DNA from: a virus
Strand: one strand, 5' to 3'
Virus record (IMG/VR): IMGVR_UViG_3300046355_000213
Location: 32,001 to 96,000 of that record
Length of the DNA stretch: 64,000 nt
Shown here: positions 8,301 to 45,353 of the stretch, piece after piece
Position numbering within the stretch: the first letter of the stretch is position 1
Layout: the number at the start of each line of letters is the position of its first letter
Notes under the pieces: model-generated
Told to the model about the DNA's origin: nothing
The model's input: the letters and a program-made list of their open reading frames with translations, nothing else
Database searches by the model: none
Program-made: the position numbers and the translations under genes

Positions 8301-8336
8301 AAGAAAAGGGAGGCTATTGGTGCCTCCCTTTTTCTT
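8301..8336. terminator. bidirectional intrinsic terminator between the convergent blocks
   Basis: AAGAAAAGGGAGGC-TATTGGT-GCCTCCCTTTTTCTT, with A and T tracts flanking the stem at the strand switch. Confidence 0.9.
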
Positions 8337-30786: not shown

Positions 30787-32757
30787 TTACTGTGTCATTC
30801 TCATGGCTGGAAACTGTCTGTTTTGCATACCGGCCATCATCTGCATGAATGGGTTCATCACAGAAGTAAAATCAGGGTAGCCATCATTGTCCTTATCAGT
30901 GGTAGTAGTACGGCCTTTTTGTTTCATCTGCTCGTCAGCCCATGCAGTTGCTTTGTCCATGGGCATTTTTAAGGTCTCCGTAGCATACTTGATCATCTCA
31001 GGATAAGTAGTTGCTGCTGCACCTGTACCTCTTGCACCACGGATCATGCTGTTGATGTCACGATTAGGATCTTTCTGTTTGGCAAATCCTGTACGGGAGT
31101 CAATCATGAAGTAAGGGTTGGTAGCATTGATGCCATCCACCATTGCACGGTTGTTCCAGGCATTGTTGTATGCTGCCAGCAATTGACTGTCAGCAGCACT
31201 TTGGTTACGGAAGTTTTCTTTCAGTGCATTGTTTGCCATCTCGTTGTACATCGTACTTGCCTGGGCACGGTTAGCCAGATACTGGTTATCCATCTGTGCA
31301 CCTTGTGTCTCATACTGATTGGCAATCATTACGTTTTGCTTATTTACCGCTCCTGCGTTGGCTTCATTGGCTGCCAGGTTTCTTCCTGCCACCTGTGATG
31401 CGCCTGCTAAGAATTGCTGTGGTCTTCCAAAGGTTCTCATACCCTGCATCTGCATGTTAGCCATCTCAGCATTCGCTGCATAGTCGCGGGTAGGGTCCAT
31501 GAATACGGCCTTTGGTTTTACATAACCAGGTGTAGCTACAAAGGGCTTGATCGTAGGAATGGTTGCTCTGGTAGCCAGGGCCTGCATACCTGCCAGCTTA
31601 TCTGGTAATAAGTAATCAGCATTAGGCATTTTATATGGAGCACCTGCTGTCCCTGGTTGTGGACCTGAAAGCATTTCCTCTTCAGACGTAGAACTAGTGT
31701 AAGGAGGGTAGCTGTTAGGTACAGGAGCCAAAGTAGGCAACTTCATCTGTACTGGGATAGGCATAGGAGCTCTTTGGATAGGGTCTACTTTTTCCATCAA
31801 ACGCGGTGCACGGAAATCATAATAACCGTCATTGAACTGTTGCTTTAACTGCTCATCGGTTAACTGATTCACTGCTTTACCAGGATACATCTTCTTGCCC
31901 TTGTTAGTTAAAGGGACATTCTTTAGATAATTCACAAACTGGTTGTTGAACTCAGGATCTTTTTGAGCACTCTGGATCATCCACTTCTGCCACTGGTCCA
32001 CATTGTTTGGACTGCCCGTATAGCCACGGTTTCCATAATAACTTGCCACGTCATTAAAACTGTCAAAAGAGTTCTCACGCATATCTTTCATGCCTGGTGT
32101 TCTCTTTCTGTAGTCCTCTGTTACCTGACCCTTAGTCTGGTACTGAGTTAAGCCGCCAAAAGCAGCTTGTGGCATAGCAGACTGTGCGATGTCTGGAATG
32201 CCTTGCGGGAAACCTTTCATGCTCTCCTGTAATAGGGCAAGCTGACCCAGCTTTTTTTGATTGTTGTCCATCATCATTTGAGCAGTCTGCTTTTTAAGCG
32301 GGTCTGCCAATGGATCATCAAGTACGCTCTTGTACTTGTTCAGGTCATATTGCTTTGCCAGTTGAGCTGGAGTGTATTTTTTCTTAGAATCTGCACTTTT
32401 ACCAAACATCTCCAGAGCGGCACCTCCAACCTTCATCTTCTTTGTGTCAGAGAATATAAAGCTGCCAGGGTTCAGGTTAAGCGGCGTACCACCTTGAGAG
32501 TGACGCTTACCGCCAATCTTCATGTGTTCCTGCATGCCGTCACCATCCAGGTCACCTACAACAGTCTCTCCTTTTTCTGCTTCCAGGTTAGCTTCTTCTC
32601 TTGGAACGGGCTGTAAGGTATCAGATACGGACTGGTAAGGACTATCCTCACGCATTTGGTTGTCTAACACCGGTTGACCTAAGTCAAGGTTGTAACCTCG
32701 CTGGCCACCATAAGCCATGTTAGGCATGTCCTTAATACGTACTCTGTATGTTTTCAT
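30787..32757 (-). CDS. putative virion cargo protein
   Basis: 656 aa. ANLEAEKGET...IGGKRHSQGGTP motif as in crAss-like cargo proteins; Q/N/A/M-rich C-terminal half; MAYGG and AAFGG motifs. Confidence 0.6.
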   Translation of the reverse strand: MKTYRVRIKDMPNMAYGGQRGYNLDLGQPVLDNQMREDSPYQSVSDTLQPVPREEANLEAEKGETVVGDLDGDGMQEHMKIGGKRHSQGGTPLNLNPGSFIFSDTKKMKVGGAALEMFGKSADSKKKYTPAQLAKQYDLNKYKSVLDDPLADPLKKQTAQMMMDNNQKKLGQLALLQESMKGFPQGIPDIAQSAMPQAAFGGLTQYQTKGQVTEDYRKRTPGMKDMRENSFDSFNDVASYYGNRGYTGSPNNVDQWQKWMIQSAQKDPEFNNQFVNYLKNVPLTNKGKKMYPGKAVNQLTDEQLKQQFNDGYYDFRAPRLMEKVDPIQRAPMPIPVQMKLPTLAPVPNSYPPYTSSTSEEEMLSGPQPGTAGAPYKMPNADYLLPDKLAGMQALATRATIPTIKPFVATPGYVKPKAVFMDPTRDYAANAEMANMQMQGMRTFGRPQQFLAGASQVAGRNLAANEANAGAVNKQNVMIANQYETQGAQMDNQYLANRAQASTMYNEMANNALKENFRNQSAADSQLLAAYNNAWNNRAMVDGINATNPYFMIDSRTGFAKQKDPNRDINSMIRGARGTGAAATTYPEMIKYATETLKMPMDKATAWADEQMKQKGRTTTTDKDNDGYPDFTSVMNPFMQMMAGMQNRQFPAMRMTQ

Positions 32758-32822: not shown

Positions 32823-34268
32823 TTAAATGAACTCCACATCACCGCCCATAGCTTTGATCTGCATGATCTGGTCTGCTGTAAGCTCATACTCTCCACCTTG
32901 CTGCATCATTTCTACGTGCAGGTGATCTCCTTCATCAATGATGTCTTCAATGCCGTAGCGCTGGCGGATCTGTGGGCTCTGGCTTAAAAGGCCTTTCAGT
33001 TGATTGTAAGCCCTTCTATCAGAAGAGTTGGCACCAATGTCAATAGCTTTGTTCTGGTAATGCTTGGAGCCACTCATGTGCTTGCTGTCATTGCCGGAAG
33101 AAATCTTCAGGCCAGGAAACTGTGCACTCATGTCTGTAGCAAAAGCACTAAGACCTGCATCCAGGTTATTGATGTTTACTCCTGGCTTAGTATCCAGGCC
33201 GGTATAGTTTGCATTGGTTGTACCAAAAGCATCGCGGGTTATCTTACCCTTACCAAAGTAATCCATAGCTCCCTTAGGCCCTGCAAAATGAATCATCATT
33301 TTTATCTGGTCTACAGACTGCTTGGGATTGTACTGCTGTTTAATCTTCTGGGCATACGGCGTCAGGGTATTAGCATTCCAATAGTCAAAGTATTTTTCCT
33401 GGGCATCCGGAGTATCTAAGAAAGCTTGCTTGCTGTCTACTCCTGTTACCGTGCGGATAGTGTCTTTGTGTTGGTTCCATAAGAACTGATACTTACCCGC
33501 TGCAGAACTTGCCAGGGAACCGTCTTTCTTTTTAGGAAGGGCCCGGTAGTCGCCGCCACTCTCACGGGTAGCAATCTGCTCTTTTAATGATATAGAGGCA
33601 GATTTAAAGTTTGTCTCTGCAGGTTGAGCAGGCATACTAGGCATCTCCGGCATAGTCTGTGGCATATAGTCCATAGGGTTCACCAGGGCCGTATTACTAA
33701 ACGCATCAATAGAAGGCACCATGTACTGTTCTGTCTCAGCGTTAACTCCTCCTACCTGAAAGAACCGTCCACCATTGTACTGTCCTTCCGGAGACTTGAC
33801 ACCCATTTGATCTGGTCTGAATAAACCATAGTCAGAAGGCCCTACACCGTAGTTACCTCTATCCATGGAGTTTTCTCCTTGTTGGTTAAACTGGGCATTA
33901 CGGTTACGTAATAAGGTATCACGCTCTCTTTCAGCATCACCCTTGTTGAAAGCTGCATTGTAAAGATTAGCAGCATTATATCCTGCATTCATCACATCCA
34001 TGAAATTAACTGTCCTTTTAGGTAGGTCAATTTCAGGATTCTCCTTAGCAATACGTTGCTTTAGGTCATTGGCAAATACAGCATCTGCAGCAGCACCTGT
34101 AGGAGCCTGAGTAGGAAAAGCCTGATTTGTCATTTGAAAATCATTGCTGGCCTGATCAATCATTTCCTGGTCAGATAATTGAAACTGAAACTTGTTAGGA
34201 GTTATCTGAGGAAAAGTGTTCTGCCCTGCCAGCTGAAATTTCTTAAGCCCTGTTATACGGATCTTCAT
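32823..34268 (-). CDS. virion peptidoglycan hydrolase: lysozyme-like + peptidase M15-like domains
   Basis: IATRESGGDY...AAGKYQF (lysozyme/SLT fold) and SKHYQNKAIDI...DHLHVE (H-x6-D / HxH, LAS family). Start set at ATG 34268 (MKIRIT), just after the upstream stop. Confidence 0.75.
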   Translation of the reverse strand: MKIRITGLKKFQLAGQNTFPQITPNKFQFQLSDQEMIDQASNDFQMTNQAFPTQAPTGAAADAVFANDLKQRIAKENPEIDLPKRTVNFMDVMNAGYNAANLYNAAFNKGDAERERDTLLRNRNAQFNQQGENSMDRGNYGVGPSDYGLFRPDQMGVKSPEGQYNGGRFFQVGGVNAETEQYMVPSIDAFSNTALVNPMDYMPQTMPEMPSMPAQPAETNFKSASISLKEQIATRESGGDYRALPKKKDGSLASSAAGKYQFLWNQHKDTIRTVTGVDSKQAFLDTPDAQEKYFDYWNANTLTPYAQKIKQQYNPKQSVDQIKMMIHFAGPKGAMDYFGKGKITRDAFGTTNANYTGLDTKPGVNINNLDAGLSAFATDMSAQFPGLKISSGNDSKHMSGSKHYQNKAIDIGANSSDRRAYNQLKGLLSQSPQIRQRYGIEDIIDEGDHLHVEMMQQGGEYELTADQIMQIKAMGGDVEFI

Positions 34269-34269
34269 G

Positions 34270-37182
34270 TTATAGTACTTCAAAAGTGTAACCAAGCCTT
34301 TTTAACTCTGCCATCTGTGCAGGAGTCACTTCCATTTCATCACCTACTGAATGCTGTCCTCCATTTTTCATAGAGCCTCCGCATTCAAAGCATGGCATAC
34401 CGCCTGCTTCATAAAAGGCATTACCTGAGAATGTAGAGCCGCCGTCTTTCCATGTCTTTCTGGCAAATGCCCTGAAAAATGGATTGTTGTCTAAGTTCTT
34501 TTTATGTCTGGCATAGAAAGCTGCTTTTCTCTCTGGGTCTTTAGGATGCTGACCTAAGTTAGAATCCCCAAAATATTTGACAGTGCCATCAGGACCTGTT
34601 ACTTTATGGGTCTTTCCTTTTCTGTCATTGCTTCTGCTTACAGTGTACCCACCATTAGCCATCTGCTCCATCTGTTCCTCAGTCATCTCCTGGTTCTCCG
34701 GAGAGTACATCATGTTGTCATATACAGAACCGGCAAAGTCATCCATAAGAGTGATCTTGCTTGCCTGCCAGGGTTCCAGGTCAGAATCTGGCTTAATGAA
34801 CTTACGAAGCTTATCCAGCTTATCCATCATAGCATTGATCTGAGACAGAGCCATCTCACCATCTGGTTGACCACCATCACCCATGAACGGCATATAACCG
34901 CCGTAAGCATACCCGTAGTCATCCATCTTATCCAGGTTACCGGCAGCTGCAAAACGGGCACGAGCAATTTCTTCTGGCATTTTGCCTCCCTCTGCATATT
35001 GTGCTTTAGGTTTTTTTCCTGCAGCTTTCATTGCCATAGCAATAGCTGCTTGTTGTGCTGAACCGCCATAGGCCATGTTACTCATGATCTTTGCTTGTAC
35101 AAATTCCGGTAAAGCTTTAAAGCCAGGATTATCTGTACCGCCACCATAAGCTTTCTCAGGCGTTACATACAATGAAGTATTAGCCCCCACGTTTTTAAAG
35201 TAAGGATTATCTAAAGTCTTTTTGCGGCAGTTGATACAACCTGCACTCATGCGGTTATCAGATACTTTATTATTGTCAAATAATTTCTCCCTGTCACCTA
35301 ACAAGTGAGTAGGAATACCGTGCATGGCTACACTCACTTTTCTGTTAGGGTTTGCAGGATCCGGAAGCAAACGCTTGTTAGGATCTGTATGCTGGATGTA
35401 AAAGAAGTTATCAGACCCATAGTTTTTACCATAGTCGGTTGCACTTGTGTTACCCTTACCTGCACGGTTCATGGTATATTCACCGGAAGGTGTAGTTCTT
35501 TTCTTATAAAACACCGGTTGTTCATCACCTGCATCTTGGCCCAGCCCAACCTCATCTTGTAAAGCAAGGTTACCATTCTCATCAAAGAAATAACCACGGG
35601 CATTCTGCTTGGATACAATACCAAACTTCTTGCCTTTGTTCTTCTCTGCGTATTGATTGTAGTAGTTGTACACATCCTGAGGAAGGTCAAAAGATTGCTC
35701 TTGTACCTCATCCTCATTCATGCCAAAAGTTCTTTCAAACCAGTTACGGTTATCTACCTTGTTGTTTACACGTTGCATACCTTTAGCGGTTGCTTTAGTT
35801 TGCGTAGTAGGTACGTAGGCAGGCATAGCGGATTGAACCGCAGGAGAAGCATAGTTTATGTTTACTCGGGGTTTCTCCTGGTACTGCAGCATGTTGAGCA
35901 TTTGCTTGTTCTGCTCAGCTGTACCTTTGTAATTATTGGCAAAGTATTTATCAAATACTTTCTTACGGCTGCTAAAGTCTGCATCCATACCACGGGCCGC
36001 CATATAATCATACAAGCTGCCGCCTTTCTGCATCTCTACTTCCATACCGTACTCAGCTTTTTTCCAACCACCACCTTTGCTCTTATACCACTTAGCTGCC
36101 CATCCATTAGCGTAAGCACTTGGATACACATCATACTTTTGTCTGGCCATAGACTTAGCTCTTGACCATAAAGACGGGTTGGTAGGGACATTACCCCCTG
36201 ATTTGAATTCTTCCATGTCGTTGTACATTTCTTCACCCCCAAACTCACGTCTGCGGTGTTGGTAATTTATTTTATCACTTGATGTTTTCTCTCTGGTAAA
36301 CTTTGCCTTCTCTGCAGATGATAACTCAGAAGATGTCTTGGGTGTATCGTCATTAACTCTCTTGCTAGGCCTGCATGCCGGATAACCCTTGCGGGATTCT
36401 CCCTCTTGTCTGCCACAGTCTTTGCCTGTCTTTACATCTACCCACTTCTCTGCAAACCATCTGTCCAGACCACCGTGTTGACCACCTGATGCATTCTTTG
36501 GTAATACACCAGTTCCTTTTTTATAATTTTCACCAAACCAGGTTGCTGCAGCATCATTAGGAAACTGTATATAAGTCTTAGTAGAGTCTGCATAATCAAA
36601 TGCATCTTTGCCTAAATACTTTAAAGTACCGTTAGGCATTTGTACTACAGTTGGATATACACGACTATCACCACTTTGCATATAGTGAGTACTAGGTCCT
36701 TTTACTCCAGGTATCTGCATAGAAGGTGTATTCTTTGGATATAGTCTTTGCACCCAATTAAGATTCTTGTTAGCATTTAGTACAGAATCAACATAAGCTG
36801 TTCCACCACCTTGCATCTTAACAGAACCTCCACACTTATGACATGTCATAGGATCAGATCCACCATCAACTGCTTTCCAAGAATGACCACAACTAGAGCA
36901 AGTAACAGATCGACTTAATAGTCCACCATTCTGCATCATTGGATACTCAGTAACGTTATCTGCATCAGGAAATAGATAGTCTTGATTAGGATACATCATT
37001 TGAGCTTGTCCAATATTAGGGACCCCTAACACAGGATAACTAACACCATCCATCGTAATATTATTAGAAGGTATGTTAGTAATCTCACCAGGATGTTGCC
37101 ACTGGTTACGGGGTACTTTAGGCTTAGAAGGCTTGGACATCTTCTTTTGGATATCGGCAAGTAAACTCTTATTTAGACTCAT
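34270..37182 (-). CDS. mosaic multi-module virion protein segmented by xxxGG motifs, including an L,D-transpeptidase-like domain
   Basis: 970 aa with about 15 xxxGG motifs between unrelated mini-domains; AMHG...MSAGCIN YkuD-like motif; CxxC...CxxC knuckle. Confidence 0.7.
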   Translation of the reverse strand: MSLNKSLLADIQKKMSKPSKPKVPRNQWQHPGEITNIPSNNITMDGVSYPVLGVPNIGQAQMMYPNQDYLFPDADNVTEYPMMQNGGLLSRSVTCSSCGHSWKAVDGGSDPMTCHKCGGSVKMQGGGTAYVDSVLNANKNLNWVQRLYPKNTPSMQIPGVKGPSTHYMQSGDSRVYPTVVQMPNGTLKYLGKDAFDYADSTKTYIQFPNDAAATWFGENYKKGTGVLPKNASGGQHGGLDRWFAEKWVDVKTGKDCGRQEGESRKGYPACRPSKRVNDDTPKTSSELSSAEKAKFTREKTSSDKINYQHRRREFGGEEMYNDMEEFKSGGNVPTNPSLWSRAKSMARQKYDVYPSAYANGWAAKWYKSKGGGWKKAEYGMEVEMQKGGSLYDYMAARGMDADFSSRKKVFDKYFANNYKGTAEQNKQMLNMLQYQEKPRVNINYASPAVQSAMPAYVPTTQTKATAKGMQRVNNKVDNRNWFERTFGMNEDEVQEQSFDLPQDVYNYYNQYAEKNKGKKFGIVSKQNARGYFFDENGNLALQDEVGLGQDAGDEQPVFYKKRTTPSGEYTMNRAGKGNTSATDYGKNYGSDNFFYIQHTDPNKRLLPDPANPNRKVSVAMHGIPTHLLGDREKLFDNNKVSDNRMSAGCINCRKKTLDNPYFKNVGANTSLYVTPEKAYGGGTDNPGFKALPEFVQAKIMSNMAYGGSAQQAAIAMAMKAAGKKPKAQYAEGGKMPEEIARARFAAAGNLDKMDDYGYAYGGYMPFMGDGGQPDGEMALSQINAMMDKLDKLRKFIKPDSDLEPWQASKITLMDDFAGSVYDNMMYSPENQEMTEEQMEQMANGGYTVSRSNDRKGKTHKVTGPDGTVKYFGDSNLGQHPKDPERKAAFYARHKKNLDNNPFFRAFARKTWKDGGSTFSGNAFYEAGGMPCFECGGSMKNGGQHSVGDEMEVTPAQMAELKRLGYTFEVL

Positions 37183-40100
37183 CGTAAACTAGGTTGCAAC
37201 TTGGTGTTAATTAACTTGAACAGGAACTTCACAGGGCCGGATACATTCTTTCTGAGCAGTACCCTGTTTACATAGTGGCGGAACTTCTTACGTTCCATCA
37301 CATTCTTATTGTAATCCACATACCGTGCGTTGATCTTACGGGTGTATCCATTGCTGGACACATTGAACATAGGCTCCATATTAGTAGTAAACTCACCCCT
37401 GTCCTTGGTGATATCCCAGAACTGGTTGAACCGGTACTTGTTCTCTTCTTTTGAGTACAGGATGTCTACTCCATTAGCCTGGACCTTTGGATAGGTTAGC
37501 AGGGCTACCGGGTTGTTCTTTGGCTTGAGGTCAAGCTTTAGGTTACCGGAGATCTGCTCTGAGTTATATACAATGGCATTGTCAAAGTTCTCATCTAAAA
37601 GGTGGAACTTGTCCTGACCGTCATTGAAGTACTTGAACGTCTCCAGCACATACTCTACGTTTCTTACCGTAGCGACCTGCTGGCCTGTAGACACCACAAA
37701 CTCCACTTCAAAAGGATAATCTTTTCCGTAGAAGTTACAGAACTGGTCTGTGCGTACATTGTGTCTCCATACGCCTCTATCCTTAACCGTTAGGAAGCTG
37801 CTTCTGCCCGGAATGATAAAGTTAGGATGCCAGTCATGGAAACTTAAGAAAGCTCCTTTGCCCTCAGCTGCCTTTGGATCATAGGAAATAGTCCAGCTGG
37901 CATCTTCAAAGTGAGAGGGGTCGCCCAAGGCTATCTTGTTCTTAGTTTTCTTGATGGTCTTTGTGCCATCAGTATTGGTAACAACGAACTCTTCTCCGTC
38001 TGTGTAGAAACCATCCACACTGTTCCACTTCATTGCTTCAGTGGTAGGCTTGAAGTCACGCTTGGTGATATAGAGCAACTCATTGGTATTATCATAGGAC
38101 ATGTTACAGCCTACGCCTACCAGTGGGTTATCCCCCAGGTTATAATCAGGAAAGGCACGTAGTAACTGAGAAGGCAAGTGCTTGGCAAACCACCACTTGT
38201 TTCCTCTTCTAGAAACTTCATCCATCTCACCGCCATAGCGGAATATCTTACCCTGTTCCTGGGATACCCAGTACACACCACCTGGAATACCGGCAATGGC
38301 AAATTTGCTTTGGCAAGAGCCATACTGGTACTCATCATCCGTGTTCATGATGTTACGCAACGGTTGGTTAAACAATCCCGCATCACCAATGGTAAGCTTG
38401 ATGCCTCCATCAGTCTGCAGACTGTCTACACCCTGGATCGTAATAGGAGCTTCATTCTCCAGCATGATCAGGGCTCCTGTGCCACCTACTGCCTTTAGAG
38501 CCGTCACACGAGATGACATGTCTAAGTAGTTGTTGGGTAGGAACCTCACCCAGTTATCCTGCTTCTGCTCAGTCTCCTGAGGTAGCGAGTACATAATACG
38601 GTTAGGCGAATAAGCATAGCAGTTCTCAGCAATGCGCGGATCATAGTCGCGGTTTTGCAAAGCTCCCCAGCTTACATAGTTATTGTACAGACGCGCAACA
38701 CTTAAGGAGTAGTCATACTTATAGAAGTTGCTTGTCTTGATATTGTCAGAGCGAAACATGGTCTGCACATCTGTGAACCGGTCCGGATCATAGTGTCTCT
38801 TACTGGCGACATCTTCCCAGTCCCTGAAAGCCAGGTTGACCTCTGATTCTACCCAGAAGTCACGTACCCCGTTACAGGAAATATAGAAGTATCCTTTCTC
38901 CACAAAGAACCCTTTGTCTACGCGGTCATCTAAGTGACGGCCTATGCTCGGGAAATTAGTAATGTCTTTGTTGGGCTTACCATTTTCTATCCAGTAACGC
39001 GGATAGGCCACCGTGATATAATTACGGTAGTCGTAGGCAATGTTATCCGGCTGGTCATAGAGCCACTCACTAAAGAAAGTGAATGGGTTCTTCTCTGTAT
39101 AACGACCAACGTACACATCCCCACCAAACATGATGTCTGTAGAGTAACGCGTAGCTAGGTCTGTACCCACATTGTACATACAAGTGTAGACAGGAACCTG
39201 CTTAATGCTTTCCAGCTGTCCGTATTGGGAAGGAAAGTTGATCTTGAGTGCACCATAATGCGCGGAGATGTCGGTTGTAACATTCTTGTTCAGGTCAACT
39301 TGCAGCTGGCCCTTTGTCTTACGCGAGATATCAACCCGTAACGGATTGGCAATCTCTTTGGTTGTGCTGACAAACACATAACCACTGCGGTCTACGTTAT
39401 TGATCTTGTAGTTATTGTAGTTCTGCAGGTTGTTGTTTACATAGAAACTATCTGCAACACCCCTGCGACTGTTGTCTGAGGAAGCATTAAGACTGAAGTT
39501 GCTGTAGTAACCGTGAGAGTTATACTGTGCTGAGTATTGTTTTTCCGGCAGTAAGGAGACGATGACACTGATGATCTTCTCATTGTACATGTCAGCCATC
39601 AACTTAGCCGTAGAAATCAAAATAACAATGTTGGCTACGTGCTGTGCAAGAACAAGTGCGTACGCCACAGCATTTGCAGCTGCACCTACACCAAAGGCAT
39701 CAGAGCCACCCGGAGGGCCGGGAAATGATGCAGGAGCACCACCCACCTCAAAAGAGAGCGGAAGGTCCTCGCTGGCAGCAAAGGTCAGTTTCTTACTGGC
39801 ACCTGTAGCCAAAGCAGAGATACTGTTCATGGTTGCAAAAACCGACAACAGCTTTCCTACAATACTCAAAGAGTCTGAGATCTGTTTGAACTTAGGGTGT
39901 TTGTACACATGCTCAAAGTTTCCAAGCGCCTGGCCGTAAACTTCTGCATAAAGTTTTACCTCCTGAACACTCAGGTAAGGTTTGGAAAAAGAAGTATCCG
40001 GACTGTGAAAAGAGAACATGTCTTTTCTGTAAGCCGTAAGGGGATTAGATCTCCTGTTGCTCTTGGAACCACTCTCTATGGATTTCTCATCAGAGGTCAG

Positions 40101-41795
40101 GTACAGATCCGGGTTAAGGTCATTGTACGGATAGTTTTGGTACAAGCCCTTGGTCCCGTTACCACCGGGAATATTAAACTCCCGCATGTTGTTAAAGATA
40201 CCCTTAGCTACAATGGTCTTGTTGCCTTCACGGGAACCTCTTAGGATCTCATAGCCTACAATAGAGGTAATGGCTTTACCGTAGTTATCTACCGGTATCT
40301 GGATGTTCTCAAACTTCACGCCCAGTACGCGGATCTTGTCCCCGCCCTGAGAGTGGTGGTAGGTCTCCTCTGATAGTTTATTATCAGGAAACTTATGGTG
40401 ACGGATAGGCTTGCCACACAGGTTCCCCCAGATCTCAAACTTGTTATCCGGATAACGCTCGGTGCTTTCCCAGTAACCCATCTCCCCCTCAGCCAGTACC
40501 ATACCGCCATCGGCAAGTTTAGTGCCTGGTGTGTTGGTGATAGAGGCCGTGTTATTTACCTGCCAAGCCTGTGCTGTCTGATCATTGTCGAGCTCAATAG
40601 CATCTGCTGTAGCCAGGTTGATACGCTCACTGTCTAAAGCTTCCCTGCCAGGAATATGGAAAGAAGCACTCTTGTCCCCTGTGTTATATACCCAGCGGAT
40701 AAAGAACGCGTACTGCTCATCTCTCATGTAGCCGGTGTTGTTTCCCCCGTTGGCATAATAGTTAGCCGGGTACTCTACACTCACCCACTTAGTGCGGATC
40801 TGGTTAGCCAGGTTCTGGTAGTTAAAGTCAAAGCGGTTATAGATACCCGTACGCACTAAATAATTATTCAGGCGGAACATGGCATCACTCTTCTCAATAG
40901 CCGGAGTGTTCAACGGGATCTGCTCCAGCGGAATAGTGATCAGGTCAGGCTCTGCAGAGTCAATAAATAACTTGGTCTGACGGGTAGAGTATATACCCAG
41001 TCTTTTGGCCACTGTGCTTTGATTTACCACTGAGATGAGTACTACTTCCATCTCATCAAAATCAGGGTCTGTATTGGTCACAGAAACGTCCAGGGAACCT
41101 CCCCCACCATCGTGGTCAAAGAGTCCCTGTACCTCAGACACTACTAAGTAATCTGTTACCCGAATAGAGTTGACAGTATAAGCCAGGGCAACCTGGTAAG
41201 AGCCGTTACGAAGGGTACCGGACGCCCGGCCCTTCTCAATACGTACACAAGGGATGGTCAGGATCTGGGCCAGTCTTAACTGCTCCACATCCAGTACACC
41301 TGTTGATTTCTCAATGATGCAGTCTCCCTGCATTTCTTTTGTAGTAAAATACGGCGGGCTGTCCATGGCCATCACCCGGTCAGGGTTGCGGCCATCAGAC
41401 CAGTACACCTTAAAGCCACAGTCCGCGTTGCGTCTGGCAGCTCCTGTGATCAGGTTGGTCCTTCTGAAGTTTAGCTTGGGATCATTGACCACTAAACGAT
41501 AAGTACCCAGGTTGGCATCAAAGACTCCAATCTCACAATTGTTATCATCTGTGGTAAACAAAGCCCAGGTGCCGTCACTGATAGGAATAGCTCCTATAAG
41601 GGTGTACGGAAGGTCAATAGTGTGAAGATTGGCTGGCTCATTTCCCAATACGCCCATCTCACCCGTATGCGTGTTGTTCACCGCATTACGGGCATGTACC
41701 CACTGGCCCTCACCTATAAAGGTTTCATTGAGGTCCTTGAGCATACCCTTGGAAAAGGTATTGATCGCACCAGGATTTTGATTGCTCTGAGCCAT
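37179..41795 (-). CDS. tail muzzle / stabilisation protein (crAss-like)
   Basis: 1538 aa, beta-rich; N-terminal NTFSKGMLKD...ARNAVN; lies between ring proteins and cargo genes as in crAss-like genomes. Confidence 0.65.
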   Translation of the reverse strand: MAQSNQNPGAINTFSKGMLKDLNETFIGEGQWVHARNAVNNTHTGEMGVLGNEPANLHTIDLPYTLIGAIPISDGTWALFTTDDNNCEIGVFDANLGTYRLVVNDPKLNFRRTNLITGAARRNADCGFKVYWSDGRNPDRVMAMDSPPYFTTKEMQGDCIIEKSTGVLDVEQLRLAQILTIPCVRIEKGRASGTLRNGSYQVALAYTVNSIRVTDYLVVSEVQGLFDHDGGGGSLDVSVTNTDPDFDEMEVVLISVVNQSTVAKRLGIYSTRQTKLFIDSAEPDLITIPLEQIPLNTPAIEKSDAMFRLNNYLVRTGIYNRFDFNYQNLANQIRTKWVSVEYPANYYANGGNNTGYMRDEQYAFFIRWVYNTGDKSASFHIPGREALDSERINLATADAIELDNDQTAQAWQVNNTASITNTPGTKLADGGMVLAEGEMGYWESTERYPDNKFEIWGNLCGKPIRHHKFPDNKLSEETYHHSQGGDKIRVLGVKFENIQIPVDNYGKAITSIVGYEILRGSREGNKTIVAKGIFNNMREFNIPGGNGTKGLYQNYPYNDLNPDLYLTSDEKSIESGSKSNRRSNPLTAYRKDMFSFHSPDTSFSKPYLSVQEVKLYAEVYGQALGNFEHVYKHPKFKQISDSLSIVGKLLSVFATMNSISALATGASKKLTFAASEDLPLSFEVGGAPASFPGPPGGSDAFGVGAAANAVAYALVLAQHVANIVILISTAKLMADMYNEKIISVIVSLLPEKQYSAQYNSHGYYSNFSLNASSDNSRRGVADSFYVNNNLQNYNNYKINNVDRSGYVFVSTTKEIANPLRVDISRKTKGQLQVDLNKNVTTDISAHYGALKINFPSQYGQLESIKQVPVYTCMYNVGTDLATRYSTDIMFGGDVYVGRYTEKNPFTFFSEWLYDQPDNIAYDYRNYITVAYPRYWIENGKPNKDITNFPSIGRHLDDRVDKGFFVEKGYFYISCNGVRDFWVESEVNLAFRDWEDVASKRHYDPDRFTDVQTMFRSDNIKTSNFYKYDYSLSVARLYNNYVSWGALQNRDYDPRIAENCYAYSPNRIMYSLPQETEQKQDNWVRFLPNNYLDMSSRVTALKAVGGTGALIMLENEAPITIQGVDSLQTDGGIKLTIGDAGLFNQPLRNIMNTDDEYQYGSCQSKFAIAGIPGGVYWVSQEQGKIFRYGGEMDEVSRRGNKWWFAKHLPSQLLRAFPDYNLGDNPLVGVGCNMSYDNTNELLYITKRDFKPTTEAMKWNSVDGFYTDGEEFVVTNTDGTKTIKKTKNKIALGDPSHFEDASWTISYDPKAAEGKGAFLSFHDWHPNFIIPGRSSFLTVKDRGVWRHNVRTDQFCNFYGKDYPFEVEFVVSTGQQVATVRNVEYVLETFKYFNDGQDKFHLLDENFDNAIVYNSEQISGNLKLDLKPKNNPVALLTYPKVQANGVDILYSKEENKYRFNQFWDITKDRGEFTTNMEPMFNVSSNGYTRKINARYVDYNKNVMERKKFRHYVNRVLLRKNVSGPVKFLFKLINTKLQPSLR

Positions 41796-42694
41796 TATTT
41801 ATAAGTCTTGTAAGTAGCAGATTGGAAAGGAGTATAGTACTTGTGGTACATGGCTTTTCTGTTCATTGCAAAGAGGTCCTGCATTTCTTTGAAGTCAGGG
41901 GTGTTGACTACCGTCAGAGCATTGTTTCTGGCAGCCCTGTATAAAGGTTCTATCAGCTGGATACGCTGGCCCACATCCTCCCCGTTCATATATAAGTTCT
42001 CCAGGATGCGCTTCTTTAGTGCGTATTCATAATACTCATTGATCAACGGGTGATCCAGAACAAGCAGGTTTCCCTCCTCATCCTCTAAAGCTCCTTCATA
42101 GTTCACATACAATTTGCCTGTCTCCAGGTAAGTGTAGATAAACCCATTTTTAATTTCTCCCTGGCTTACATCACCATGTCCGGCAAGTCCCTGCTTTTTG
42201 GCATAGTCGCTCAGGAATTTAGAAGTGGAAAAATGCAGCTTCTCAAAGTGGTCATAGATACGGGTCTGGTTGCGGATCTTCTCCACCACGACCCAGGTAT
42301 CACCACACTCATTGGTTGTAGTGTAAGTATCCGTGCATCCGCAAGCCATAGCCTGTGAGCCACATACGCGGCAAACCTGCGGGTCTACCACAAACTTGAC
42401 ATCTTCTGTCTGCCTGCCTGCAATGACCGGCTCCTGGACCTTGTAAGAGTCCATGAGCAAAGCATAGTTCATCACATAGAAGTCTTCGGGAAGCCTGGCC
42501 TTGCCTTTGATAATTTCCAGTACCCTGTCCTTTGTGCCATGGATGCGCATACCCAAATCATAGCTGACGCGCTGGGCAACTTTGATCAACTGGGCAGGCT
42601 CTATCATACCCTCTGCATTATAGAGGGTGAAGTCTTGATTGACCTCATACATGAGTTCATCAAAGGTCCGGTACTTTATCTCTATCTTACCCAT
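41795..42694 (-). CDS. putative tail ring / tubular protein
   Basis: 299 aa; ARLPEDF...YEGALEDEEGNLLVLDHP...YALKK resembles crAss-like ring proteins; translationally coupled to both neighbours. Confidence 0.55.
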   Translation of the reverse strand: MGKIEIKYRTFDELMYEVNQDFTLYNAEGMIEPAQLIKVAQRVSYDLGMRIHGTKDRVLEIIKGKARLPEDFYVMNYALLMDSYKVQEPVIAGRQTEDVKFVVDPQVCRVCGSQAMACGCTDTYTTTNECGDTWVVVEKIRNQTRIYDHFEKLHFSTSKFLSDYAKKQGLAGHGDVSQGEIKNGFIYTYLETGKLYVNYEGALEDEEGNLLVLDHPLINEYYEYALKKRILENLYMNGEDVGQRIQLIEPLYRAARNNALTVVNTPDFKEMQDLFAMNRKAMYHKYYTPFQSATYKTYK

Positions 42695-43371
42695 TATCTA
42701 AGGATGTTTTGCTTGTCAGGTGCAACGTCAGTTGGGATGGACAAGGTTAATTGGAAGTCTTTGAGCACGTTGCTTTCTATCTCTCCATGGATGTAGTCAG
42801 GAGCATTGAAGGGCTCCAGTTGTCTGAGCATACAGTCATCATTTGGATCACAGTTCCAGCGGCTGATAGAGTCTTCAAAAATGCCTTCTACCCGCACCGC
42901 ATCCCAGTCTAAATTGGGGAAGTACAGGTAGTCATTTAAGAAGTAGTAGTAAAGTGTCTTGTTGTATTTGCTGTTCTTGCTGCGGGCAATGTTCAGGTAG
43001 TTTACAGACGTGGTAGCCTGCAGATCCTGGGACCCGTCTAAGGAAGTGACATGGCGGATCAAAGGCCCAAAGTAGCCTTGCATAAACGTAGGCATTTTGT
43101 GCTTGGACCGTCTGAAAGTGATGCCACTTTTGATTCCGGTACAGTGTGCCTCCACGGCATCCACTTCAATTAACTCCACAAAGTCAAGGGTCTGGAATAC
43201 CGAGTTAAAGCTCATCAGCTTGTTCTTGCTGTCCTCGCGCTTCATGAGCCACTTGGCATGCTTGGATACAAGACTGTATATAAAACGGTCAGTCAGGAAC
43301 GCGTCCTGGCTGACAGCTTTTAACTGGTTACGGATTCTGGAGATAACTTCTCCAATAGTGGTTCTGGCCAT
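42694..43371 (-). CDS. putative tail ring protein
   Basis: 225 aa; DAFLTDRFI...YYFLNDYLYF...VRVEGIFED...IPTD pattern resembles crAss-like ring proteins. Confidence 0.55.
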   Translation of the reverse strand: MARTTIGEVISRIRNQLKAVSQDAFLTDRFIYSLVSKHAKWLMKREDSKNKLMSFNSVFQTLDFVELIEVDAVEAHCTGIKSGITFRRSKHKMPTFMQGYFGPLIRHVTSLDGSQDLQATTSVNYLNIARSKNSKYNKTLYYYFLNDYLYFPNLDWDAVRVEGIFEDSISRWNCDPNDDCMLRQLEPFNAPDYIHGEIESNVLKDFQLTLSIPTDVAPDKQNILR

Positions 43372-44018: not shown

Positions 44019-45353
44019 TTAAAAGGTGTACTTACTCTCAAAGATTTGCTGACTATCACGACACACAACGTCAAAGCATATCCCAGGTTTGTTGGGTCCA
44101 AAGTTGGTACCGATCCACTTACTGCCTCCAAATAGGGAGAGTACGTTACGGTACCTAAAGCCGTAAGTATCCTGAGAGTTAGCCATGTGCAGGTCCCCTT
44201 TTACAATGGAGATGTTTGCATCCTGCGGATTAAACCCATGGTACATCAAATACTTGCGGAAGTAGTTTTCTACCTTGTCATTGAGGTGCAGCGGCAATCC
44301 GTGCTTCATGTCCTCATCATCCTTACCGTGCGTAAATAAGAATATATGCTCACCGTATACTTCATGCTCTATGAACTTAGTCAGCATGCGTGTCTTTACC
44401 CAAGGGTACACGGCGTTCAGGTACATTTCAATAGCGCGGTTAACCATATAATCAAAGTCACCTCCGTGATTGGAGTTACAGTTCTGGTATACGTGATAGT
44501 TAGTTGCCAGGTTATCTTCTATCAGGGTATCAAAGAACCACTTCTCTACAGAGACAGCGGTTTCAAAAGCCTGCTTGTTACTCATGTTCTGTGGCAACCT
44601 GTGACCTCCACGCGTGGTCTGTCCGTTCTGCCCATCCATCTTGTCCCCCAGGTCAATGATATACAGATCTTCAAAAGCACCAAAGGTATTGGTGTGCAGA
44701 TAGATCTGATACAGCACCTCTTCCATTCTGTCTTTATACTCCTGTGCGTTGTACGTATTTTGGTACAAAGCAGTCTCCCCTACGTACGCACCAATATGGC
44801 GGTCAGAGAGATAAACAAATAAAGCTTTGGAGTTGGAGGCAGGGGCCTCAGGTCTGATCCTGGGAGTCAGGTTGACCTGGTTAAATGCTTTGATAATAAT
44901 ATCTTCAGCATCTTGTAAAGTAACTTCTTGTTCTTGCTTGGCAGAACACATGGCTGAGACTTCCCAGCGGTTCTTCTTTTGTTTGTTCCAGTAGGTGGAT
45001 AACTTCCACTTGTTGGTGTCAATCCTTAACCTTAGGATGATCTCTTCAGGACTCATAGGTTCAGAGGTAAGCAAGGCTTTAACCTCTAATTTCTTGTTGT
45101 CAATGAAGTGGTTCATTTCCAGGATCTGGTCCTCCTCTTCTGCGTCCTCCTCCAGCTCCTCTCTTTTCTGCAGCTTGAGCCGCACCATTTCATCAATGTT
45201 TTCACCGGCATGCTCGATCATGTCTTGCTTCATGCCAATGACCTCTTGCTTTAACTCCAGGTATTCTTCTTGGGAGATACCTAGTTTGTCTGCACAGTAT
45301 TCAGCGTTCTTTTTCCACTTCAAACTGTCAAACACTCTGGTCAATAGTGTCAT
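44019..45353 (-). CDS. calcineurin-like metallophosphoesterase with N-terminal HTH-like segment
   Basis: SDRHIG, LGDKMDG, NSNH, FTHG and GDLH motifs; N-terminal AEYCADKLGIS is HTH-like. Confidence 0.8.
   Translation of the reverse strand: MTLLTRVFDSLKWKKNAEYCADKLGISQEEYLELKQEVIGMKQDMIEHAGENIDEMVRLKLQKREELEEDAEEEDQILEMNHFIDNKKLEVKALLTSEPMSPEEIILRLRIDTNKWKLSTYWNKQKKNRWEVSAMCSAKQEQEVTLQDAEDIIIKAFNQVNLTPRIRPEAPASNSKALFVYLSDRHIGAYVGETALYQNTYNAQEYKDRMEEVLYQIYLHTNTFGAFEDLYIIDLGDKMDGQNGQTTRGGHRLPQNMSNKQAFETAVSVEKWFFDTLIEDNLATNYHVYQNCNSNHGGDFDYMVNRAIEMYLNAVYPWVKTRMLTKFIEHEVYGEHIFLFTHGKDDEDMKHGLPLHLNDKVENYFRKYLMYHGFNPQDANISIVKGDLHMANSQDTYGFRYRNVLSLFGGSKWIGTNFGPNKPGICFDVVCRDSQQIFESKYTF

What the first reader, a model, noticed from the sequence alone, without database searches (positions are those of the whole stretch)
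34270..37182. Polyprotein-like virion cargo: unrelated mini-domains separated by a repeated [M/F/Y]-x-x-G-G motif
Seen: the 970-aa ORF is punctuated by MQNGG, MQGGG, NASGG, REFGG, FKSGG, MQKGG, KAYGG, MAYGG, YAEGG, YAYGG, MGDGG, MANGG, WKDGG, YEAGG and MKNGG. The motifs fall at the borders of dissimilar modules of roughly 25-200 aa. These include a CxxC/CxxC knuckle, GLDRWFAEKWVD...YPACRP, LWSRAK...YPSAYANGW...KGGGW, SLYDYM...YKGTAEQN, an L,D-transpeptidase-like domain, DLEPWQASKIT and KTHKV...KYFGD...FYARH. From recall (unverified), several resemble stand-alone small basic proteins of other aquatic phages, for example DUF5872-like halves in swapped order. The motif recurs in the next two genes (FQVGG, MQQGG; MAYGG, AAFGG). 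Inference: a plug-in cargo platform in which a di-glycine motif is either a maturation-protease site releasing many small proteins in the capsid or host, or a repeated capsid-binding tag, and which also marks exchangeable cassette borders.
Basis: partly seen in the sequence, partly recalled or inferred. Interest (0 to 1): 0.82.

Follow-up and report, generated by a model that had tools for sequence, protein, structure and literature searches.

The report
Mosaic phage cargo protein, Gly-Gly junctions
This gene of a marine crAss-like phage encodes a virion cargo protein assembled from many small interchangeable modules, each joined to the next by a conserved five-residue motif ending in two glycines whose role (hinge, cutting site or docking tag) is still open.

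Summary
It has 13 [M/F/Y/W]xxGG motifs against 0.84 expected from the rest of the 125-kb phage genome, and none of 20,000 shuffles reached that count.

The gene lies directly after the ring and muzzle genes of a crAss-like phage, in the position of PhicrAss001 cargo protein gp45.

It belongs to a very large metagenomic family, with 1026 hits among the 7998 candidates scored. Members average about 11 motifs per 1000 aa. Of 126 complete members, 102 have different module orders.

Similarity breakpoints, AlphaFold low-confidence stretches and gene fission points all fall at the GG motifs. The motif is a junction element. It follows a module only when another module comes next, it is absent when the same modules are joined in non-crAss phage proteins, and it is selected at the protein level.

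No protease was found, so cleavage is unproven. My best reading is an uncleaved beads-on-a-string ejection protein with conserved hinge connectors. Processing sites or a multivalent docking motif remain live rivals.

A conserved C-terminal tail that follows a GG is shared by neighbouring cargo genes.

Verdict: new variant of a known kind, interest 0.62.

The parts
34270..37182 (-). 970-aa cargo-position ORF. Its start overlaps the muzzle gene's stop by 4 bases.
36922..37110 (-). Residues 25-87: N-terminal beta-rich module (family module 8), ending in MQNGG.
   Evidence: pLDDT 93-96 with six strands; 74 copies among 240 family proteins
36802..36921 (-). Residues 88-127: CxxC...CxxC knuckle, ending in MQGGG.
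   Evidence: module 11
36481..36801 (-). Residues 128-234: module 10, function unknown, ending in NASGG.
36235..36480 (-). Residues 235-316: C-terminal half of DUF5872 (module 6), ending in REFGG.
   Evidence: Pfam 8e-18; 68% identical to an 87-aa Prochlorococcus phage protein that lacks the GG
36193..36234 (-). Residues 317-330: acidic spacer ending in FKSGG. This is where related phages split the gene in two.
36019..36192 (-). Residues 331-388: N-terminal half of DUF5872 (module 4) plus a short spacer, ending in MQKGG.
35137..36018 (-). Residues 389-682: endolysin-type wall-binding-like module (389-453) followed by a YkuD L,D-transpeptidase-fold domain (522-655), ending in KAYGGG.
   Evidence: DUF3597 is precomputed on homologues
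34438..35136 (-). Residues 683-915: conserved backbone of the family (modules 0, 21, 5, 1, 2). Each module ends in a motif: MAYGG, YAEGG, YAYGG, MGDGG, MANGG, WKDGG.
   Evidence: about 100 of 119 homologues cover this stretch
34357..34437 (-). Residues 916-942: array of motifs with 1-8 residue spacers (YEAGG, FECGG, MKNGG).
34273..34356 (-). Residues 943-970: conserved C-terminal tail that follows a GG.
37179..41795 (-). Muzzle protein gene, directly upstream.
   Evidence: Pfam crAss_MUZ 1.2e-40
41795..43371 (-). Tail ring protein 1 and ring protein 2 genes.
   Evidence: Pfam CrAss_Ring_1 7.5e-10 and CrAss_Ring_2 1.7e-20
32823..34268 (-). 481-aa downstream cargo gene. It carries FQVGG and MQQGG, a Hedgehog/LAS-type zinc-peptidase-like domain, and the same kind of C-terminal tail.
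30787..32757 (-). 656-aa cargo gene with MAYGG at residue 14, plus MKIGG and MKVGG. It is conserved in all 26 syntenic loci.

Best explanation
Identity, which I hold at about 0.85. This is a virion-packaged cargo or ejection protein of a marine crAss-like phage. It is encoded at the position that cargo protein C1 (gp45) holds in PhicrAss001, and it belongs to a very large, hyper-mosaic family.

The protein is a string of small, independently folding modules on a conserved backbone. The modules include:
- a beta-rich N-terminal domain,
- a zinc knuckle,
- two DUF5872 halves,
- an endolysin-type wall-binding-like module,
- a YkuD-fold domain,
- a helical hairpin,
- a DUF5754-like domain,
- a C-terminal tail.

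Each module that is followed by another one ends in a junction motif: M, Y, F, W or K, then two variable residues, then Gly-Gly.

Mechanism, which is inferred. The motif is an uncleaved connector. The Gly-Gly gives a flexible break and the residue three positions before it belongs to the module's end. This keeps neighbouring modules structurally independent.

Such a chain could be stored extended in capsid and tail, threaded through portal and tail, and unfold and refold one module at a time during ejection. The wall-active modules would then act in the host envelope.

Because every junction is a neutral, self-contained break, junctions are also where cassettes are inserted, lost or moved, and where the gene splits or fuses.
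For: Shown:
- Ring 2, ring 1 and muzzle genes lie directly upstream. The genome also has a Crass_capsid major capsid protein and a portal.
- The same gene order occurs in 26 related loci.
- In PhicrAss001, passages of PMC10172136 place gp45 after the muzzle gene. They describe it as present in about 12 copies, with one part in the tail barrel and another on the portal, expected to be ejected with partial unfolding.
- Both AlphaFold models are strings of separate modules (pTM 0.32 and 0.34), and confidence dips at 17 of 20 GG sites.
- Similarity breakpoints sit at the motifs.
- Segments cut at GG alone cluster with at least 70% mutual coverage into 275 module families.
- There are 102 architectures in 126 complete proteins.
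- The residue at -3 is specific to each module: W in 158 of 159 copies of module 2, Y in 100 of 101 of module 5, M in 155 of 163 of module 0.
- The GG columns are at least 90% conserved in the 72-sequence core alignment.
- The 16 motifs use 9 different codon pairs for GG, so selection acts on the protein.
- The motif is junction-specific.
- Fission points match junctions in 14 split loci. Seven downstream genes start exactly at module 4.
- Motif density falls from 6.99 per 1000 aa in genes between muzzle and the 656-aa homologue, to 1.44 in other cargo genes, 0.91 in muzzle and 0.35 in other genes.
Against: - A plain flexible linker does not need a conserved hydrophobic residue at -3, nor near-invariant GG.
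- The same two DUF5872 modules are joined without the motif in non-crAss phage proteins, so folding alone does not require it.
- Homology to gp45 is not detectable: BLASTP E 0.34, hhalign probability 5.5%.
- No transmembrane-like stretch is present, unlike gp45 (maximum 19-residue hydropathy 0.6).
- No virion proteomics exists for this phage, so both packaging and the uncleaved state are inferred.
Confidence: 0.45

Rival explanations
1. Polyprotein processing. The motif is the recognition site of a protease, from the phage, co-packaged, or from the host. The protease cuts at or after Gly-Gly during maturation or after ejection and releases a set of small proteins.
For: - The motif occurs only at internal junctions.
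- It is strongly conserved, with information at -3 to -1 and little on the downstream side.
- The same modules work either as separate gene products or fused.
- A GG immediately precedes the conserved C-terminal tail in 127 of 129 tail-bearing proteins, as expected for a removable targeting peptide.
- A LAS-type zinc-peptidase-like domain is encoded in the next gene.
Against: - Six-frame family searches of the whole genome found no C39, C5, C48 or S78 peptidase.
- No peptidase family appeared in the 26 of 137 ORFs scanned with Pfam or in the 16 scanned with PHROGs.
- Motifs often stand 3-10 residues apart: 702 of 3484 segments are shorter than 10 aa. Cutting there would yield tiny peptides.
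- The hydrophobic residue sits one position further from the GG than I recall for adenovirus-type or ubiquitin-like sites.
- The PhicrAss001 paper's main text has no occurrence of 'cleav', 'proteol' or 'protease', and it models gp45 as one chain spanning tail and capsid.
Confidence: 0.25
2. Multivalent short linear motif. The repeated motif, and the tail, bind a repeated site in the particle such as the capsid inner face, portal, ring proteins or DNA. Alternatively the motifs stick to each other. Either way they would load and hold the cargo, much as encapsulin cargo-loading peptides do (that comparison is recalled).
For: - The motif is conserved despite lying in predicted disordered stretches.
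- It forms tandem arrays with short spacers.
- Density is highest in the genes at the C1 position.
- The tail is shared by two adjacent cargo genes and by 792 cluster representatives. In about 138 of the 150 listed, the match lies at the very C-terminus.
Against: - When module 6 ends a protein it carries no motif (0 of 8), so the motif is not a tag that each module needs.
- No partner has been identified.
- No structural match was found.
Confidence: 0.2
3. Compositional chance or annotation artefact: a glycine-rich ORF that happens to hold many GG dipeptides.
For: Glycine makes up 10% of the residues.
Against: - None of 20,000 shuffles reached the observed counts.
- More glycine-rich genes of the same genome have far fewer motifs: 5 in 1278 aa at 17.8% Gly.
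- The motif is kept in hundreds of homologues.
Confidence: 0.01

Closest known systems
PhicrAss001 cargo protein C1 (gp45) and the crassvirus cargo/ejection set (PMC10172136, passages read)
   Same: - It is the gene directly after the muzzle gene and is followed by further cargo genes and giant proteins.
- gp45 is also glycine-rich, with 21 GG in 842 aa and three [MFYW]xxGG.
- gp45 is described as an extended chain ejected with partial unfolding.
   Different: - No detectable homology: BLASTP E 0.34, hhalign probability 5.5%. The only signal is a weak match of gp45 residues 318-419 to a family member, covering a module the window protein lacks (E 0.019).
- No transmembrane-like stretch.
- Far higher motif density and cassette turnover.
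- Wall-active modules are present.
Ejection proteins of other podophages that carry cell-wall enzymes, such as the T7 internal core protein with a transglycosylase domain (recalled)
   Same: Packaged proteins that leave before the DNA and carry peptidoglycan-directed domains.
   Different: Those are large, mostly helical proteins of fixed architecture. No repeated junction motif or cassette shuffling is known to me for them.
Viral polyproteins cut at Gly-Gly (adenovirus, African swine fever virus) and double-glycine leader peptides cut by C39 peptidases (recalled)
   Same: A hydrophobic residue a few positions before a Gly-Gly at borders between functional units.
   Different: - No cognate peptidase was found here.
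- The position of the hydrophobic residue differs by one.
- There are up to 16 sites per protein, often only 3-10 residues apart.
Pfam DUF5872, DUF5754 and DUF3597 small viral or endolysin modules
   Same: Modules 6 and 4, module 2 and residues 389-453 belong to or resemble these families.
   Different: In this protein they are strung together with junction motifs. In other phages the same modules occur alone or are joined without the motif.

Membership tests
Crassvirus cargo protein C1 (gp45-like) | Gene directly downstream of the muzzle gene in the ring-muzzle-cargo block | tested here: met
   the same order in 26 related loci
Crassvirus cargo protein C1 (gp45-like) | Sequence or profile homology to gp45 | tested here: not met
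   BLASTP E 0.34; hhalign probability 5.5%; no PDB sequence or fold match
Crassvirus cargo protein C1 (gp45-like) | Predicted transmembrane helix in the N-terminal part | tested here: not met
   Maximum Kyte-Doolittle 19-residue mean is 0.6
Crassvirus cargo protein C1 (gp45-like) | Present in virions, bound to portal and ring proteins | not testable with these tools
   Needs proteomics or cryo-EM. The complex prediction was not run.
Gly-Gly-processed viral polyprotein | Repeated GG sites at borders of functional units | tested here: met
Gly-Gly-processed viral polyprotein | Cognate protease encoded by the virus | tested here: inconclusive
   No C39, C5, C48 or S78 match in the whole genome. 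Only 26 of 137 ORFs were scanned with all of Pfam. Divergent or host proteases are not excluded.
Gly-Gly-processed viral polyprotein | Cleavage products | not testable with these tools
   Needs virion terminomics.
Pfam DUF5872 | Score over the curated cut-off | tested here: met
   65.5 bits against 27.5, with the halves in swapped order
Pfam YkuD (L,D-transpeptidase catalytic domain) | Score over the curated cut-off | tested here: met
   32.2 bits against 23.4, residues 522-655. A Ser-x-Gly-Cys stretch is visible at 646-649. Its match to the catalytic motif is judged from recall only. AlphaFold confidence there is low.
Pfam DUF7210 (C-terminal tail) | Score over the curated cut-off | tested here: not met
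   18.8 bits against 27 on the isolated tail

The most novel reading that the evidence does not exclude
The pentapeptide is a code read by a partner, not a passive linker. In the boldest form, these phages package a cassette-built polyprotein. A still unidentified peptidase cuts it at Gly-Gly, either in the capsid or after ejection. Candidates are the LAS-type zinc-peptidase-like cargo protein encoded next door, or a host enzyme. Cutting would release a changeable cocktail of ten or more small wall-binding, DNA-binding or host-directed proteins. The conserved tail after the last GG would be the removable packaging signal.
Probability: 0.2. Interest if true: 0.85.

Novelty: new variant of a known kind. 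Interest (0 to 1): 0.62.

Why it matters
Crassviruses and their marine relatives are very abundant. How they load several megadaltons of protein into the particle and push it through the tail is an open question.

This family offers a natural experiment. Hundreds of variants of one cargo protein swap modules at a single conserved five-residue junction and share one C-terminal tail.

If the junction is a hinge, it shows a design rule for proteins that must pass a narrow channel. If it is a cutting or docking site, it would be the first such signal known for crass-like cargo loading. In that case it could also serve as a handle for packaging foreign proteins into phage particles.

It also shows where several widespread viral domains of unknown function (DUF5872, DUF5754) are used.

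Tried and rejected
- Fold search of the core model against the PDB gave no match with E at or below 0.001.
- PDB sequence searches with the protein and with the core profile found nothing below E 0.1.
- Homology of the 970-aa protein and of the 656-aa neighbour to gp45 is not significant.
- DNA-level microhomology as the cause of shuffling is rejected. The GG codons vary and position -3 uses four different amino acids.
- No transmembrane segment was found.
- Peptidase families C39, C5, C48 and S78 gave no match in the genome.
- The two motif instances in the major capsid protein lie mid-protein and look like chance.
- The Atlas search gave only leads, with DUF5754-like small viral proteins matching residues 843-929.
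- Literature. Searches for DUF5872, for DUF5754/DUF3597/DUF7210, for crAss-like + marine + muzzle, for Lbo-JY46, and for bacteriophage + ejection proteins + polyprotein + glycine found no description of this motif or family. I saw listings only, except PMC10172136, where I read passages. Supplements were not seen. The virion mass-spectrometry tables of that paper could bear on processing of gp45.
- Complex prediction was not used. I make no binding claim, and the partner of the motif or tail is unknown.
Full report
**1. The observation**

The 970-aa ORF at 34270-37182 on the minus strand is real.

It has 23 overlapping GG dipeptides, in 20 G-runs, and 13 instances of [M/F/Y/W]xxGG. I laid the whole 125,034-bp contig in the script box (the window is bases 32001-96000) and made a simple non-overlapping ORF set of 137 proteins.

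- The other 38,330 aa hold 242 GG, 33 [MFYW]xxGG and 11 MxxGG.
- That predicts 6.1, 0.84 and 0.28 for 970 aa, against 23, 13 and 7 observed (Poisson P 1e-7, 7e-12 and 2e-8).
- None of 20,000 shuffles of the protein reached the observed counts.
- Given a GG, the residue at -3 is M, F, Y or W in 13 of 23 cases here and in 33 of 242 elsewhere (Fisher P 8e-6).
- More glycine-rich genes of the same phage have few motifs, for example 5 in 1278 aa at 17.8% Gly.

**2. Where the gene sits**

Pfam identifies the three genes upstream:
- tail ring protein 2 (1.7e-20),
- ring protein 1 (7.5e-10),
- the crassvirus muzzle protein (1.2e-40).

Further along the genome lie a Crass_capsid major capsid protein (2e-32), a portal (PHROG 7e-94) and a large terminase. 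CheckV rates the contig 100% complete.

This is therefore a crAss-like phage. Its nearest cultured relatives by muzzle protein are only 25-28% identical: Leptolyngbya phage Lbo-JY46, a gut csAss phage, and Cellulophaga phages phi17:2 and phi4:1.

In PhicrAss001 the gene after the muzzle gene is cargo protein C1, gp45. Passages of PMC10172136 describe it as follows:
- It was detected in virions by mass spectrometry.
- Up to about 12 copies are present.
- Residues 214-245 line the tail barrel and residues 425-552 sit on the portal.
- It is expected to be ejected N-terminus first, with partial unfolding.

The main text of that paper holds no occurrence of 'cleav', 'proteol' or 'protease'. I could not see its supplements.

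Downstream of the 970-aa gene come ORFs of 481, 656, 952, 4560 and 1928 aa, which matches the cargo block of crassviruses in position.

**3. What the modules are**

- Pfam finds DUF5872 (65.5 bits) and YkuD (32.2 bits, residues 522-655) above their cut-offs.
- The DUF5872 halves are swapped relative to the model. Residues 215-304 match profile positions 28-114, and residues 333-382 match positions 1-49.
- Residues 384-453 match a PHROG of L-alanyl-D-glutamate peptidases and the C-terminal part of Bacillus phage endolysins. Homologues carry precomputed DUF3597, a domain listed among endolysin domains in the papers found (listing only).
- Residues 846-915 match DUF5754 only weakly (E 0.05). The Atlas lists small viral DUF5754 proteins as structural neighbours (a lead only).

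Modules also occur elsewhere:
- an 87-aa Prochlorococcus phage protein, 68% identical to residues 238-313;
- the C-terminus of a 202-aa Synechococcus phage protein, 78% identical to residues 324-359;
- two adjacent small ORFs of Roseobacter phage CRP-207, in the opposite order.

**4. The family**

A word-indexed search gave 1026 proteins with E at or below 0.001 among the 7998 candidates scored, all between 533 and 1698 aa. A further 909 hits were shorter.

Coverage of the query is mostly partial (6-76%) at high local identity, which is what a mosaic predicts.

- In the 120 proteins of at least 300 aa (query included) there are 1305 [MFYW]xxGG in 118,133 aa, or 11 per 1000. That is 59% of all 2214 GG.
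- A logo of 1433 distinct GG contexts carries information only at three positions besides the GG: -3 (M 0.32, Y 0.16, K 0.12, F 0.08, W 0.05), -2 (A, Q, K, E) and -1.

**5. The motifs are module borders: four lines of evidence**

(a) BLAST endpoints. Of 847 internal BLAST endpoints on the query, 65% lie within 3 residues of a GG against 14% expected. Collapsed to 199 distinct positions the figure is 34%. A shared motif can itself pull an HSP end towards it, and the hits are related to each other, so this statistic is an overestimate.

(b) Segment clustering. Cutting 240 family proteins at GG alone gives 3484 segments with a median of 26 aa. Segments of at least 20 aa cluster, at 70% or more mutual coverage, into 275 module families. 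This would not happen if the GG positions were arbitrary.

(c) AlphaFold. I ran the full protein with 70 sequences (pLDDT 59.5, pTM 0.32) and the core with 72 sequences (pLDDT 61.5, pTM 0.34). Both give separate small folded units. 17 of 20 GG sites fall in stretches with pLDDT below 50, which make up 39% of the chain (P 4e-5). The three exceptions include the GG inside DUF5872 module 4.

(d) Architectures. 126 proteins with a Met start and the tail show 102 different module strings. There is a common backbone: (6)-4-0-5-(9)-1-2 or 14-15-16, then a variable part, then (7)-3.
   - Modules are inserted, lost or replaced.
   - Some change place. The wall-binding plus YkuD cassette stands after module 4 here, but after module 16, module 1 or module 27 in others.
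   - Module 2 can stand near the N-terminus.

**6. The motif is a junction element**

- The residue at -3 goes with the upstream module: W in 158 of 159 copies of module 2, Y in 100 of 101 of module 5, K in 140 of 140 of module 4, M in 155 of 163 of module 0.
- The motif is present only when something follows. In 20 copies of module 6 in related loci, 0 of 8 that end a protein carry a GG, and 8 of 12 internal ones are followed at once by xxGG. Two of the four exceptions are one duplicated locus.
- In the segment clusters, 32 of 92 copies of module 6 end the protein without a GG.
- The Prochlorococcus phage homologue likewise lacks it.
- In non-crAss phage proteins the same two DUF5872 modules are joined by a stretch with no such motif.
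- The GG columns are at least 90% conserved in the core alignment.
- The 16 motifs of this gene use 9 different Gly-Gly codon pairs, so selection acts on the protein.

**7. Gene fission and fusion**

Of the 80 IMG/VR loci fetched with the family alignment, 26 show the order muzzle, then family gene(s), then the 656-aa homologue.

- Between those two anchors lie one gene in 8 loci, two in 11 and three in 7.
- In three loci (L016, L018, L029) modules of the 481-aa peptidase gene are fused to family modules.
- In 14 split loci, seven downstream genes start exactly at the first residue of module 4, and two start at a module 4 variant. Six of the 14 upstream genes end with module 6 and no GG.
- The window's gene is therefore a fusion of what many relatives encode as a variable N-terminal protein plus a motif-dense core protein of about 400-500 aa. 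Those core proteins carry 9-13 motifs each.
- Across these loci, motif density is 6.99 per 1000 aa between the muzzle gene and the 656-aa homologue, 1.44 in the other cargo genes, 0.91 in muzzle and 0.35 in the remaining genes.
- In the window's own genome, MxxGG occurs 15 times in the cargo block and 3 times elsewhere.

**8. The tail**

The last ~28 residues follow a GG and resemble the end of the 481-aa neighbour. They also resemble the ends of one or two adjacent cargo genes in many loci and the end of a 674-aa cargo gene of Leptolyngbya phage Lbo-JY46.

- A 26-sequence profile of the tail finds 792 cluster representatives at E at or below 0.001.
- In about 138 of the 150 listed, by my count, the best match ends within 3-4 residues of the C-terminus.
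- Protein lengths range from 42 to 1846 aa.
- Of 129 newly returned proteins, 127 have a GG 18-45 residues from the end, and their motif density is 9.0 per 1000 aa.
- On the isolated tail Pfam DUF7210 scores 18.8 bits, below its cut-off of 27.

**9. Mechanism**

Shown:
- position in the cargo block;
- mosaic build;
- junction-specific, conserved motif;
- predicted strings of independent modules;
- wall-directed modules.

Inferred: that the protein is packaged and ejected, and what the motif does.

I commit to an uncleaved connector at 0.45.
- The Gly-Gly breaks structure between modules.
- This lets the chain be stored extended and pass the portal and tail module by module.
- It fits what is described for gp45, and it explains why junctions tolerate insertion, loss, fission and fusion.
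- Its weakness is that a passive linker needs neither the conserved residue at -3 nor near-invariant GG.

The processing reading stands at 0.25.
- It explains that conservation, and it explains why split and fused forms are equivalent.
- No C39, C5, C48 or S78 peptidase is found in six-frame searches of the genome.
- No peptidase appears in the 26 ORFs scanned with Pfam or in the 16 scanned with PHROGs.
- 702 of 3484 inter-GG segments are shorter than 10 aa.
- The only peptidase-like fold nearby is the Hedgehog/LAS-type domain of the 481-aa neighbour (best PDB hit E 0.005). That domain is most simply a wall peptidase.

The docking-motif reading stands at 0.2.
- It fits the tandem arrays and the shared tail.
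- It does not fit the absence of the motif from terminal modules.

**10. Comparison with the known**

Functionally and by position this is a crassvirus cargo protein of the C1 kind.

By sequence it is not a detectable gp45 homologue. The only trace is a weak match of gp45 residues 318-419 to a family member, P0136, over a module that the window protein lacks (E 0.019 for that single pair). gp45 is itself GG-rich, with 21 GG and three motifs.

The literature searches found no description of the motif, the family or the tail.

I rate it a new variant of a known kind. It is a known class of virion cargo protein with an undescribed cassette architecture, junction motif and C-terminal tail.

Noticed in passing
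window 34273-34356 and 32826-32945 (minus strand): A conserved C-terminal tail of about 25-28 residues follows a GG. It ends both the 970-aa and the 481-aa cargo proteins and one or two adjacent cargo genes in many related phages. A profile of it finds 792 cluster representatives, almost always at the very C-terminus. It is a candidate packaging or docking signal.
   Followed up: partly
window 32823-34268 (minus strand): The 481-aa cargo gene has a C-terminal Hedgehog/LAS-type zinc-peptidase-like stretch (best PDB hit E 0.005, residues 372-427). By eye it also has a lysozyme or transglycosylase-like stretch upstream. In three related loci (L016, L018, L029) its modules are fused to modules of the 970-aa family.
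   Followed up: partly
window 14140-27822 and 8335-14121 (minus strand): The giant cargo-block ORFs are 4560 aa, with a C-terminal SF1 helicase (AAA_30 4e-20, UvrD_C_2), and 1928 aa, with a PD-(D/E)XK nuclease domain (1.4e-6). No RNA polymerase family was reported by Pfam.
   Followed up: no
L030:9785-11204 and L036:5092-7724: In some related contigs the region after the muzzle gene holds small genes of 100-216 aa. They consist of one module plus motifs, or almost only of motif arrays, for example six motifs in 206 aa.
   Followed up: no
L090:16988-19516 (PhicrAss001 gp45): gp45 has 21 GG in 842 aa. Residues 318-419 weakly resemble the family member P0136 over the module that precedes the tail in many members (BLASTP E 0.019). 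This is a possible remnant of common origin.
   Followed up: partly
window 30787-32757 (minus strand): The 656-aa cargo protein has MAYGG at residues 14-18, right after a short basic N-terminus, and a methionine-rich C-terminal end. Its first ~200 residues are the part conserved in all 26 syntenic loci.
   Followed up: no
G000:C1:107410-108144 (L004:11410-12144): A PhoH-like ATPase gene (1.5e-63) lies between the large terminase and portal genes.
   Followed up: no
window 44019-45353 (minus strand): A 444-aa gene inside the tail module matches a PHROG of unknown function (1.6e-42) and, more weakly, an exonuclease PHROG (2e-10).
   Followed up: no
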